DNA of 64,000 bases from Escherichia coli O127:H6 str. E2348/69. Its GTDB lineage: Bacteria > Pseudomonadota > Gammaproteobacteria > Enterobacterales > Enterobacteriaceae. The stretch lies in the NCBI RefSeq assembly GCF_000026545.1, contig NC_011601.1; one strand, given 5' to 3'. Positions 24,001-27,000 of this stretch are shown here, in pieces (position 1 is the stretch's first letter; each line of letters starts with the position of its first letter). The position numbers are program-made.

Positions 24001-27000
24001 GATCACTGAATTTGCCTGAATATCTAAATCTTCCCCCGTAAGGTTGGCATACACAACATCCTGTCCCTGCATGGCCTGCTTAAGTGCTGCATGATTCAGT
24101 ACATCCCCCATAATAATCTTGCTATTAGTTGGATAGGGTTTGTGGATTTTTGCTGGCTGACGGGCAAATAAAGTTTGTTTAATGGTTTGTTTATCTGCCA
24201 GTTGATTAATCACATGGCGGGCTATCTGACCGCCAGCACCAAGAATCAGTACATTTTTCATGAAACTTTTCCCAGATTATTGGCAGCAATATGCCTGGCC
24301 ATATCACTATTACGGATTTGAATATGTTTCATTACAGAGTTTCCTCAAAGAACGGAGCTAATACTGAAATTGCTTCAGCCACATAGACTTTGCCGTCATA
24401 AAGATCCATATGGTTTGCGCCTTCAACAATGTGATAGCGTTTATCCTGGCTTGATGCTCGATCGTACAGGTCGTCACTCATCCATTTGCTCCCAGCCTGG
24501 CTGCCCGCCACAATCTGTATCGGCTGAGTCAGGTACACTTCCGCCATATGGTAAGCATCATAGGTAATAATCTGGTTAAGGCTGCGCAAAGTAGCGTAAC
24601 CCGGTGCTGTTGGATACTGCGCGCGAGGGGTGTGGTAATACTCCCAGGCCTGACGCAGTTCTTCGTTCGGCGCATCGGACTCCTTCATTGGTGCCAGTGG
24701 CATAGTGGCGTATTCTCCGCTGCTAATATCGCTGGTTCGGGCGTTTGAACCCGCGTCAACGTATGGTAGGGCATCAATAGATTTCACATTGTTTTCCCAA
24801 CCATTACGGAACATCGAACCAATATTGACCGCACTAACAGTACCGATGGCCTTGATGCGGCGATCCTGAATTGCAGCATTGGCTGTATATCCTGCACCGG
24901 CACAAATTCCCATCGCACCAATTCGGGTATTGTCGACATAAGAAAGCGTTGTCAGGTAATCAATCACGGCACTGACGTCTTCAGTACGAATGTATGGGTT
25001 TTCTAACTGACGCGGCTCGCCGCCGCTTTCACCTTGATAAGATGCGTCATAAGCAATAGTGACAAATCCCTTTTCCGCCAGTTTTTCGGCATAGGTTCCG
25101 GCCGTTTGCTCTTTAACGCCCCCACCTGGGTGAGATACCACAATTGCCGGATACTGACGGGTTTCATCAAATTTTGGAGGGAAATAGATCACTGCAGACA
25201 AAGAGATGGTTGGATTATTGCTGTTAGTGAAGCTGACTTTATTATTCATCATTCCGTTCCTCATGGAGTTGTCGGTTCGTTTTAACGGTTGGTGATATCA
25301 CTATAGATATTGATCATTAAGTTGATTAGACCCAAAATCATGATTAGACCTATCATTTAAATGATTAATAGATTGTATGGAGATACTGAATGAAGCGTGA
25401 AGAAATCGCTGATCTGATGGCGTTTGTCGTTGTTGCAGAGGAGCGTAGCTTCACTCGCGCAGCAGCCCGCCTGAGCATGGCGCAGTCAGCTTTAAGCCAG
25501 ATAGTGCGCCGTATAGAAGAACGATTGGGATTGCGGCTTCTGACGCGAACCACGCGCAGCGTTGTACCCACTGAAGCGGGCGAGCATCTTTTGTCTGTTC
25601 TTGGCCCTATGTTGCATGACATAGATTCTGCCCTGACATCCCTGAGCGATCTGCAGAACCGCCCATCCGGGACAATACGTATTACTACTGTAGAACATGC
25701 AGCAAAAACGATATTGTTACCAGCTATGCGCACATTCCTGAAATCGCATCCTGAAATTGATATTCAGCTTACCATTGATTATGGTTTGACCGATGTCGTT
25801 TCTGAACGTTTTGATGCAGGCGTCCGTCTGGGTGGGGAGATGGATAAAGATATGATCGCCATTCGAATCGGGCCAGACATACCAATGGCTATTGTTGGCT
25901 CACCGGATTATTTTTCTCGCCGAAGTGCTCCAACGTCAGTGTCACAATTAATAGATCATCAGGCAATTAATTTGTATCTTCCCACATCGGGTACAGCAAA
26001 TCGCTGGAGATTAATACGCGGTGGACGTGAAGTTCGTGTTCGCATGGAAGGTCAGCTTTTACTGAATACGATAGACCTGATCATTGATGCTGCAATTGAT
26101 GGGCATGGATTGGCGTATCTACCTTATGATCAGGTTGAGCGGGCTATTAAAGAAAAAAAACTGATACGTGTTTTGGATAAATTCACACCAGATTTACCCG
26201 GTTATCACCTGTACTATCCACACCGTCGACATGCTGGCTCGGCATTCTCATTATTTATAGATAGGCTGAAGTATAAAGGTGCTGTTTAGCACTACTTGCT
26301 GATACATTAATTTAATTCTTCTCTTAACGTATTCTCAGTTCCTTTCAACGTTTTGGTTATTTTTTATTCTTCGCACAATGGCGACAGATGCTGATTATGA
26401 TACCGAAAACGGGTTTGAATGTGCGAAGCCCGAACGTAGTGTTCGGAGTTCTATGTGCTTTACCGCATTTTGGAGACTATTATTTACACTAAATCTGATT
26501 TGATATATTGATACTTAAAACATTTGATGCTTCCTTTGTCACTTTTTTGATGGAAGTTGTTTGCATTTCTTTAAAGCGAAACAAATAATTACGCATCAAT
26601 TTTAATGTCGGTTAGAGGGAAACTTATGAAGCACTCTGTTTCAGTCACGTGTTGTGCGCTGTTGGTCAGCAGCATTTCTCTTTCGTATGCTGCTGAAGTT
26701 CCGAGCGGCACAGTACTGGCAGAGAAGCAGGAGCTGGTGCGCCACATTAAAGATGAGCCAGCGTCGCTGGATCCCGCTAAAGCCGTGGGCCTGCCGGAGA
26801 TTCAGGTCATTCGCGATCTGTTTGAAGGACTGGTGAATCAGAACGAGAAAGGGGAGATTGTCCCCGGCGTTGCGACTCAGTGGAAAAGTAATGACAACCG
26901 TATCTGGACTTTTACCCTGCGCGATAACGCAAAATGGGCGGATGGCACACCGGTAACGGCGCAAGATTTTGTCTACAGCTGGCAACGTCTGGTGGACCCG

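What the first reader, a model, noticed from the sequence alone, without database searches (positions are those of the whole stretch)
25352..25365. Perfect 14-bp palindrome ATCATTTAAATGAT between divergent ycjY and the LysR-type regulator ycjZ
It is located 25 bp upstream of ycjZ in the shared control region, with the position and symmetry expected of a LysR-family autoregulatory site controlling the divergent hydrolase gene. Neither the ligand nor the regulon of this regulator is known to me.
Basis: inference. Interest (0 to 1): 0.35.

Follow-up and report, generated by a model that had tools for sequence, protein, structure and literature searches.

The report
PgrR (YcjZ) operator in its promoter
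The 14-bp palindrome is real and strongly conserved, and is most likely the DNA site where the already characterised E. coli LysR-type repressor PgrR (formerly YcjZ) binds over its own promoter, next to the divergent ycjY hydrolase operon, so it is an ordinary feature of a known system.

Summary
ATCATTTAAATGAT is at window 25352-25365, 24 nt before the pgrR (ycjZ) ATG, in the 137-bp spacer shared with divergent ycjY. As a bare palindrome it is unremarkable: the window has 3 perfect palindromes of 14 bp or more, against 4.8 expected.

Conservation is what makes it stand out. The 19-bp block TATCATTTAAATGATTAAT is 99% identical across 11 orthologous loci. Third codon positions are 58-63% identical, and the spacer just downstream is 38%.

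On plasmids of Rhizobium, Agrobacterium and Kozakia the same position holds ATCAY-N4-RTGAT. The inner arm base changes symmetrically (T/A to C/G) and the central 4 bp vary freely, which is the pattern of a dimer-binding operator.

The left arm overlaps the only strong, positionally conserved -10 candidate for pgrR (TATCAT).

The regulator is not unknown. YcjZ is PgrR, published as repressor of ycjY-ymjDC-mpaA and ycjG, with a SELEX peak on this spacer and experimentally shown negative autoregulation.

The site spacing is ATC-N8-GAT (T-N10-A), one bp short of the canonical LysR box. Roles for the neighbouring half-site repeats, and the transcription start sites, remain inferred. Interest is low.

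The parts
25352..25365 (.). Dyad operator ATCAT-TTAA-ATGAT, proposed primary PgrR binding site (recognition site)
   Evidence: Perfect palindrome. Arms are 5/5 symmetric in 12 lineages, with a symmetric T/A to C/G change and a free central 4 bp. Mean pairwise identity is 0.987, against 0.58-0.63 at third codon positions.
25351..25369 (.). Invariant 19-bp block TATCATTTAAATGATTAAT (dyad plus flanks)
   Evidence: Longest invariant run in the 450-column alignment of 11 orthologous loci, with one MAG carrying a single T to G change. Present at the same position in all 15 pgrR/ycjY loci among the 80 metagenome loci examined for the exact 19-mer.
25351..25356 (+). Predicted pgrR -10 hexamer TATCAT, overlapping the left arm
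   Evidence: Consensus scan. Same pick in Shimada 2014 (PMC3946193). Top-scoring or second plus-strand candidate, at the same position, in all 5 lineages. CCTAT(C) is retained even in paralogous LTTR loci. Prediction only; no TSS data found.
25327..25332 (+). Predicted pgrR -35 hexamer TAGACC (18-nt spacer)
   Evidence: It lies within GATTAGAC, which is conserved across gamma- and alpha-proteobacteria and in paralogues.
25300..25305 (-). Predicted ycjY -10 hexamer TATAGT (reverse complement of ACTATA)
   Evidence: ACTATAG is invariant in 11 loci while its flanks vary. It is the only minus-strand candidate conserved in position in all 5 lineages. Prediction only.
25323..25328 (-). Predicted ycjY -35 hexamer TAATCA (17-nt spacer), back to back with the pgrR -35
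   Evidence: TGATTAG is invariant. PWM scan. It is a weak -35 (3/6).
25313..25326 (.). Second ATCA-N6-TGAT (ATCATTAAGTTGAT), candidate weaker PgrR site 39 bp from the palindrome
   Evidence: Other lineages carry ATTAT-TAAG-ATGAT or ATCAT-TAAG-ATGAT. Its conserved right arm coincides with the promoter -35 region, so its role as a PgrR site is only weakly supported.
25336..25345 (.). AATCATGATT, abutting half-sites between the two dyads (candidate only)
   Evidence: Seen in sequence. Only partly conserved: ATAATGATT in the 88% group, and absent in alpha-proteobacterial loci.
25370..25389 (+). Hypervariable spacer with the Shine-Dalgarno sequence (GGAG) of pgrR
   Evidence: Mean pairwise identity 0.385. 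Length is 14-25 nt in enterics and absent (2 nt) in alpha-proteobacterial and distant homologues.
25390..26289 (+). pgrR (ycjZ), LysR-type regulator
   Evidence: Annotated as PgrR. Pfam HTH_1 1.6e-21 and LysR_substrate 1.5e-35.
24332..25252 (-). ycjY, alpha/beta hydrolase, divergent target gene
   Evidence: Paired with pgrR in every orthologous locus examined.
22604..24261 (-). Downstream genes of the reported ycjY operon: an SDR (intact ymjC/ymjD equivalent, 23623-24261) and mpaA (22604-23332)
   Evidence: Annotation. Regulon listing ycjY-ymjDC-mpaA (PMC5934670). mpaA also has its own mapped TSS (Kim 2012 supplement).

Best explanation
The palindrome is the high-affinity operator (recognition site) of PgrR, the LysR-type repressor encoded 24 nt downstream. 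A PgrR dimer contacts the two arms ATCAY and RTGAT; the central 4 bp are not read.

The left arm is part of the predicted pgrR -10 hexamer (TATCAT), and the dyad reaches the likely start point. Bound PgrR would therefore occlude its own promoter, giving negative autoregulation.

The predicted ycjY promoter is -10 TATAGT at 25305-25300, with a -35 placed back to back with the pgrR -35. Relative to it, the dyad centre lies at about -65, the classical position of a LysR-type recognition site. Repression of ycjY-(SDR)-mpaA would then need the second DNA-binding pair of the tetramer to contact promoter-proximal DNA around 25313-25345.

Shown: the sequence, its conservation, the symmetric co-variation and the domain content. 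From the literature: PgrR binds this spacer, represses the ycjY operon and autorepresses. Inferred: the exact contacts, the start sites, the tetramer geometry and any ligand response.
For: - Sequence: perfect dyad at 25352-25365.
- Conservation: the 19-bp block is 0.99 identical in 11 orthologous loci, against 0.58-0.63 at third codon positions and 0.385 in the adjoining spacer. It is the longest invariant run in the alignment.
- Operator signature: ATCAY-N4-RTGAT with 5/5 symmetric arms in 12 lineages. The central 4 bp vary (TTAA, TGAA, TGAG, TGGA). The inner arm base is T/A in enterics and R. tropici, and C/G on both arms in A. fabrum, A. pusense and Kozakia.
- Link to the regulator: the core of the recognition helix, AQSALSQIVRR, is invariant in all 8 enterobacterial loci and in two of the four alpha-proteobacterial plasmid loci that keep the full dyad. 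The other two alpha loci still have a perfect dyad but differ in the helix (Kozakia IAQSGLSQIVRR, A. pusense LSQSALSGIVRR). Homologues of 65% and 58% identity have altered helices and a degraded left arm. Paralogues beside other genes have a different helix and no dyad, although they keep the promoter-like GATTAGA...CCTAT.
- Co-inheritance: the dyad travels with pgrR/ycjY on chromosomes and plasmids of gamma- and alpha-proteobacteria. Among the 80 metagenome loci examined for the exact 19-mer, every occurrence outside that locus is in unrelated DNA, mostly low-G+C.
- Promoter overlap: TAGACC-18-TATCAT was found by the scan, by Shimada 2014 and in all 5 lineages.
- Literature: PgrR SELEX peak ycjY/ycjZ and regulon ycjY-ymjDC-mpaA, ycjG, ycjXF-tyrR (PMC5934670). 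[quoted passage not shown] RefSeq names it a transcriptional repressor.
- Family: HTH_1 plus LysR_substrate domains.
Against: - No experiment I could read maps PgrR binding to these 14 bp. The original paper (PMID 23301696) was not available.
- The spacing is T-N10-A, not the canonical T-N11-A, and no 15-bp dyad exists in the spacer.
- No transcription start site for pgrR or ycjY in the spacer was found in the data sets I could search, so all positions relative to promoters are predictions.
- A second conserved plus-strand promoter candidate (TTGATC-17-CAAAAT) would put the dyad at about +7 to +20 instead.
- Part of the left arm's conservation could be due to -10 function alone.
- No palindrome-like site was found upstream of ycjG or ycjX, which are listed as regulon members.
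- The extra half-site repeats coincide with promoter elements, and their TGAT cores are not kept in alpha-proteobacteria.
Confidence: 0.8

Rival explanations
1. The block is conserved only as the core promoter of pgrR (-10 hexamer, discriminator and start site). The dyad symmetry is incidental and no regulator binds it.
For: TATCAT is the best conserved -10 candidate. CCTAT is kept even in paralogous LTTR loci that lack the dyad.
Against: The right arm (AAATGATTAAT), downstream of the -10, is as invariant as the left. Both arms change together (ATCAC...GTGAT) in three alpha-proteobacterial plasmids while the centre drifts. A promoter alone does not predict that pattern.
Confidence: 0.08
2. The dyad is bound by a different, host-encoded protein (a global regulator or nucleoid protein) rather than by PgrR.
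For: The site is AT-rich. RNA polymerase holoenzymes with RpoE and RpoH also give SELEX peaks on this spacer (PMC5493296). I could not see a PgrR footprint.
Against: The dyad is co-inherited with pgrR in hosts as distant as Escherichia, Serratia, Rhizobium and Kozakia, often on plasmids. It degrades as the PgrR recognition helix diverges further. By eye and from memory it does not fit the FNR, CRP, IHF, ArgR or TyrR consensus; no tool was run for this. It occurs at a single place in each E. coli genome.
Confidence: 0.07
3. It is a chance palindrome in AT-rich intergenic DNA with no function.
For: The window has no excess of 14-bp palindromes (3 against 4.8 expected).
Against: 99% identity across loci whose neutral sites are about 60% identical, with the adjacent spacer at 38%. 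The dyad is retained in alpha-proteobacterial plasmids at 66-69% overall nucleotide identity.
Confidence: 0.02
4. It acts at the RNA level, as a hairpin in the pgrR leader or in a long ycjY leader.
For: If the upstream promoter candidate (CAAAAT -10) is used, the dyad is transcribed.
Against: Folding of 25345-25395 gives -3.9 kcal/mol with z = 0.26, and 111 of 200 shuffles fold as well. The minimum-energy structure does not use the palindrome hairpin. The arm pairs are A-U rich and the stem would be only 5 bp.
Confidence: 0.01

Closest known systems
PgrR (YcjZ) regulation of the ycjY-ymjDC-mpaA operon in E. coli K-12 (Shimada, Yamazaki, Ishihama 2013, Genes Cells 18:123; cited in PMC5934670, PMC4797297, PMC10505187)
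   Same: It is the same locus. The K-12 spacer is identical to the window except for one base at 25376. The literature reports a PgrR SELEX peak on the ycjY/ycjZ spacer, repressor function, and autoregulation.
   Different: I could not read the original paper. I therefore cannot say whether the 14-bp dyad was already named as the site. The arm and centre definition (ATCAY-N4-RTGAT) and the cross-class conservation come from this analysis.
Classical LysR-type divergent promoter architecture: a recognition site near -65 overlapping the regulator's own promoter, plus an activation site near -35 (for example BenM/CatM ATAC-N7-GTAT, CbnR, the NodD nod box ATC-N9-GAT; from established knowledge of the family)
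   Same: Divergent regulator and target genes. Interrupted dyad with ATC...GAT arms. The dyad overlaps the regulator's predicted -10 and sits at about -65 from the predicted target start. Negative autoregulation.
   Different: The arms are one bp closer (ATC-N8-GAT, T-N10-A). PgrR is described as a repressor, not an activator. A second site is not well defined. Start sites are predicted, not measured.
AmpR-ampC (a LysR-type regulator that responds to peptidoglycan recycling intermediates; from established knowledge)
   Same: An LTTR divergently paired with a hydrolase gene, and linked in E. coli to peptidoglycan peptide turnover through mpaA, ycjG and mppA nearby.
   Different: No sequence-level equivalence was tested. 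I found no reported PgrR ligand. Outside Escherichia the pgrR/ycjY pair has no peptidoglycan genes next to it.

Membership tests
LysR-type transcriptional regulator (the protein PgrR/YcjZ) | N-terminal winged helix-turn-helix of the LysR type (Pfam HTH_1) | tested here: met
   PF00126, E = 1.6e-21, residues 7-65.
LysR-type transcriptional regulator (the protein PgrR/YcjZ) | C-terminal LysR substrate-binding domain | tested here: met
   PF03466, E = 1.5e-35, residues 90-294. NCBIfam gives only sub-threshold hits to named LTTRs such as YafC, GcvA and AaeR.
LysR-type transcriptional regulator (the protein PgrR/YcjZ) | Divergent arrangement with a regulated gene | tested here: met
   ycjY is divergent here and in the orthologous loci of 65% identity or more that were examined. 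A hydrolase is also divergent next to the 58% and 50% homologues, but not next to the 53% (L020) or 49% (L022, L023) homologues.
LysR-type recognition binding site ('LTTR box') | Interrupted dyad symmetry | tested here: met
   ATCAT-TTAA-ATGAT. Arms are 5/5 symmetric in 12 lineages.
LysR-type recognition binding site ('LTTR box') | T-N11-A spacing of the symmetric T/A pair (15-bp dyad) | tested here: not met
   The symmetric pair is T25353...A25364, which is T-N10-A (ATC-N8-GAT). No 13-, 15- or 17-bp dyad with at most one mismatched pair exists in the spacer.
LysR-type recognition binding site ('LTTR box') | Centred near -65 of the divergent target promoter and overlapping the regulator's own promoter | tested here: inconclusive
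   With predicted promoters the dyad centre is about -65.5 from a ycjY start near 25293, and it spans the pgrR -10. No measured TSS in the spacer was found.
LysR-type recognition binding site ('LTTR box') | Accompanying weaker activation-binding site near -35 of the target promoter | tested here: inconclusive
   A second ATCA-N6-TGAT lies at 25313-25326 and half-sites at 25336-25345. Their conserved parts coincide with promoter -35 elements, and the TGAT cores are not kept in alpha-proteobacteria.
LysR-type recognition binding site ('LTTR box') | Bound by the cognate regulator; negative autoregulation | not testable with these tools
   Literature only: SELEX peak on the ycjY/ycjZ spacer; autorepression shown by CRISPRi and TF titration (PMC10505187). 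Base-level mapping was not seen.

The most novel reading that the evidence does not exclude
The conserved and probably ancestral job of PgrR may be to control a mobile hydrolase cassette: ycjY, often with a second alpha/beta hydrolase and an SDR. The cassette moves among gamma- and alpha-proteobacteria on plasmids, carrying its ATCAY-N4-RTGAT operator.

On this reading the 'peptidoglycan recycling' role is an Escherichia-specific by-product of mpaA, ycjG and mppA lying next to the cassette. The true inducer would then be a substrate or product of the hydrolases, not a murein peptide. The T-N10-A dyad would define a distinct operator class within the LysR family.
Probability: 0.3. Interest if true: 0.4.

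Novelty: already known. Interest (0 to 1): 0.15.

Why it matters
It matters little for discovery. The regulator, its target operon and its autoregulation are published.

The useful residue is a base-level, testable definition of the PgrR operator: arms ATCAY/RTGAT, a free 4-bp centre, and one bp shorter than the canonical LysR box. That helps motif-based regulon prediction and reporter design.

There is also the observation that the regulator's conserved partner is the hydrolase rather than the peptidoglycan genes. This could redirect the search for the ligand, none of which I found reported.

Tried and rejected
- **Original PgrR paper:** PMID 23301696 is not held.
- **Measured start sites:** the Cappable-seq and ROSE supplements had no entry for the spacer. 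Thomason 2015 is not held. No Conway 2014 supplements are held. Kim 2012 lists only a TSS inside pgrR on the minus strand, assigned to ycjY with a 667-nt leader, plus mpaA's own TSS.
- **Palindrome-like sites upstream of other listed regulon members:** none within 4 mismatches in the tpx/ycjG or ycjW/ycjX spacers.
- **Sigma-E promoter reading of the GTCTAA repeats:** prompted. By eye there is no acceptable GGAACTT-like -35 at 16 nt, so I dropped it.
- **Published ycjY promoter pick (ATGATA-19-TCTAAT):** by my count the spacer is 20 nt, and it is not among the conserved candidates.
- **RNA hairpin:** rejected.
- **Distant homologues from the 50%-cluster search**: at 50% identity or less the upstream regions are unrelated and uninformative.
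- **Exact 19-mer in metagenomes outside the locus:** of the 80 loci examined, the 65 outside the locus are chance hits in unrelated DNA, mostly low-G+C.
- **Three-site 'sliding dimer' layout** (palindrome, AATCATGATT, ATCATTAAGTTGAT): attractive at first, then downgraded once the alpha-proteobacterial and paralogous loci showed that GATTAGAC and CCTAT behave as shared promoter elements.

Full report
**Observation**

The window is E. coli chromosome from pspF to nifJ. It is 100% identical to strain FDAARGOS_536 over the segment tested. ATCATTTAAATGAT is a perfect palindrome at 25352-25365. It lies in the 137-bp, 34% G+C spacer between ycjY (24332-25252, minus strand) and pgrR, formerly ycjZ (25390-26289, plus strand). 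It ends 24 nt before the ATG.

As a palindrome it is not statistically special in the window. There are three perfect palindromes of 14 bp or more, against 4.8 +/- 2.0 in dinucleotide shuffles. Only 1.5% of shuffles of the spacer itself contain one. ATCA/TGAT tetramers are enriched there, 9 against 3.6. ATCA-N6-TGAT occurs twice in the spacer, at 25313 and 25352.

**What is already known**

YcjZ has been renamed PgrR. Papers from the Ishihama group list a genomic SELEX peak on the ycjY/ycjZ spacer. They give the regulon as ycjY-ymjDC-mpaA, ycjG and ycjXF-tyrR (PMC5934670; PMC4797297; EcoCyc update PMC5210515). RefSeq calls the protein a transcriptional repressor.

A CRISPRi promoter-response screen with TF titration showed negative autoregulation of pgrR. 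The authors called it consistent with the binding site already identified on its promoter region (PMC10505187).

Shimada 2014 predicted TAGACC-18-TATCAT as the pgrR promoter. The scan here finds the same pair at 25327-25356.

I could not read the original 2013 paper. I therefore do not know whether the 14-bp dyad was named there.

**Conservation**

One genome scan returned orthologous loci from Citrobacter, Kluyvera, Pseudocitrobacter, Serratia and Shimwellia, with PgrR 85-88% identical. I aligned 11 loci over 450 columns.

- The block TATCATTTAAATGATTAAT (25351-25369) is the longest invariant run. A single MAG carries one T to G change.
- Its mean pairwise identity is 0.99.
- Third codon positions of the flanking genes are 0.58-0.63 identical.
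- The 20 nt between the block and the ATG are 0.385 identical.

Other invariant islands are ACTATAG (25300-25306) and TGATTAG (25323-29).

Within E. coli, a 34-bp segment around the palindrome is present in 5222 of 5426 complete genomes. It is at least 99% identical in 5192, with one place per genome as a rule.

Fifteen are pgrR/ycjY loci, always with the 19-mer at the same position. The other 65 are unrelated, mostly low-G+C contigs.

**Operator signature**

A plasmid search found the same divergent hydrolase/LTTR pair on plasmids of four genera:

- Klebsiella, about 80% nucleotide identity.
- Rhizobium tropici, Agrobacterium fabrum and A. pusense, and Kozakia baliensis, 66-72% nucleotide identity.

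For R. tropici and A. fabrum, the PgrR homologue is 72-73% and the YcjY homologue 83% identical at the amino-acid level.

At the equivalent position these loci carry the following:

| Host | Sequence |
|---|---|
| R. tropici | ATCAT-TGAG-ATGAT |
| A. fabrum | ATCAC-TGAG-GTGAT |
| A. pusense | ATCAC-TGAG-GTGAT |
| Kozakia | ATCAC-TGGA-GTGAT |

The arms stay fully symmetric in 12 lineages. The inner arm base changes on both arms together, and the central 4 bp drift. This pattern is expected of a site read by a symmetric protein dimer. A promoter element alone would not produce it.

The core of the recognition helix, AQSALSQIVRR, is unchanged in all the enterobacterial loci and in R. tropici and A. 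fabrum. Kozakia (IAQSGLSQIVRR) and A. pusense (LSQSALSGIVRR) keep a perfect dyad but differ in the helix. Homologues of 65% and 58% identity have altered helices and a degraded left arm at the same position. Two paralogous LTTRs sit next to aldo/keto reductase or alcohol dehydrogenase genes; they have another helix and no dyad. Yet they keep GATTAGA-N18-CCTAT.

I read GATTAGAC and CCTAT(C) as inherited promoter elements. On the plus strand they would give the -35 TAGACC and -10 TATCAY of the regulator gene. On the other strand they would give the -35 TAATCA of the hydrolase gene. The dyad is then the specificity element.

**Promoters and geometry (predicted only)**

A position-weight scan was run over five lineages.

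- For pgrR, TAGACC-18-TATCAT is conserved in all five. A second candidate, TTGATC-17-CAAAAT, is also conserved.
- For ycjY, the only candidate conserved in position is TAATCA-17-TATAGT.

With the first pgrR promoter, the dyad covers about -12 to +2 of pgrR. With the ycjY candidate and a start near 25293, the dyad centre is at about -65.5. That is the textbook position of a LysR-type recognition site.

In alpha-proteobacterial and distant homologues the dyad ends 2 nt before the ATG. Enterobacterial loci have a hypervariable insert of 14-25 nt carrying the Shine-Dalgarno sequence.

I found no measured start site in the spacer.

**Mechanism proposed**

PgrR binds the dyad as the anchor site and occludes its own promoter. 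This part is supported by the published autorepression.

Repression of the ycjY operon would need the tetramer's second DNA-binding pair to contact promoter-proximal DNA. The candidates are ATCATTAAGTTGAT (25313-25326) and AATCATGATT (25336-25345). They are only weakly supported, because their conserved parts coincide with the shared -35 region and are not kept in alpha-proteobacteria.

**Comparison with the family**

The protein meets the LysR definition. The site meets the dyad criterion but not the canonical spacing. The symmetric T/A pair is T-N10-A (ATC-N8-GAT), and no odd-length dyad exists in the spacer. It works like an LTTR recognition site, with a one-bp shorter geometry.

**Rivals**

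- Promoter-only conservation is contradicted by the right arm and the symmetric co-variation.
- A host factor is unlikely, given co-inheritance with pgrR across classes and on plasmids.
- Chance is excluded by conservation.
- An RNA hairpin is excluded by folding (z = 0.26).

**Side result**

Outside Escherichia the pgrR/ycjY pair is followed by a second alpha/beta hydrolase and sometimes an SDR. It is never accompanied by mpaA, ycjG or mppA. In K-12, mpaA has its own mapped start site. The conserved partner of PgrR is thus the hydrolase, and the peptidoglycan link may be specific to Escherichia.

**Verdict**

This is a real, functional and strongly conserved operator. It belongs to a regulator and target region already described in the literature, so novelty is 'already known' and interest is low.

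Noticed in passing
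window 23428-23462 and 26540-26573: About 30 bp are shared, in the same orientation, upstream of mpaA and of mppA: TCACTTTTTTG..GGAAGTTGTTTG.ATTT, with the core nearly identical. The mpaA TSS mapped by Kim 2012 lies about 15 bp from it. It could be a common regulatory site for the two murein-tripeptide genes, or a duplication remnant.
   Followed up: partly
window 23623-24261: An intact 212-aa SDR/NAD(P)H-binding gene (Pfam NAD_binding_10, 5.8e-54) sits between ycjY and mpaA. K-12 has only the fragments ymjC and ymjD here.
   Followed up: partly
loci L002-L013, L144-L147; plasmid hits H33-H39, H52, H53: The ycjY/pgrR pair behaves as a mobile cassette. Versions about 88% identical at the protein level occur in many enterobacterial genera and on Klebsiella plasmids. 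Versions about 72% identical occur on Rhizobium, Agrobacterium and Kozakia plasmids, one of them next to an IS21 gene. None carries mpaA, ycjG or mppA.
   Followed up: partly
window 25292-25301: A 10-bp palindrome GTGATATCAC (TGGTGATATCACTA, 6/7 pairs) lies at the predicted ycjY start point. It is kept in E. coli and Serratia PL17, is imperfect in S. proteamaculans and the OH_SBB MAG, and is absent from the 88% group.
   Followed up: no
window 16768-16778: TTGATAATCAA lies in the ycjW/ycjX spacer. It has the same TGAT/ATCA tetramers in the opposite relative orientation, upstream of ycjX, which is listed as a PgrR regulon member.
   Followed up: no
window 29446-29459: Another ATCA-N6-TGAT (ATCAATGCGTTGAT) lies in the ynaI/ynaJ intergenic region.
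   Followed up: no
L010 about 2949-2962 (52 to 39 nt upstream of the LTTR ATG): The 58% PgrR homologue of a gammaproteobacterial MAG has its own perfect 14-bp palindrome, TTGTTAATTAACAA. It also has a degraded ATTAT-TCTG-GTGAT 2 nt before the ATG.
   Followed up: no
L147 about 762-776 (A. pusense plasmid): A second dyad, TATCATTCCATGATA (ATCAT-TCC-ATGAT), lies about 31 bp upstream of the main ATCAC-TGAG-GTGAT dyad. This suggests a two-dyad layout in that lineage.
   Followed up: no
window about 25931, minus strand (K-12 U00096.2 1390556): Kim 2012 lists a minus-strand TSS inside pgrR and assigns it to ycjY with a 667-nt leader, which makes it an antisense start within the regulator gene. The same table puts an mppA TSS 489 nt upstream of mppA, inside pgrR.
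   Followed up: no
window 25253-25389: Shimada 2017 reports RpoE and RpoH holoenzyme SELEX peaks on this spacer and calls pgrR and ycjY RpoE-dependent. By eye I found GTCTAA (-10-like) twice but no matching -35.
   Followed up: partly
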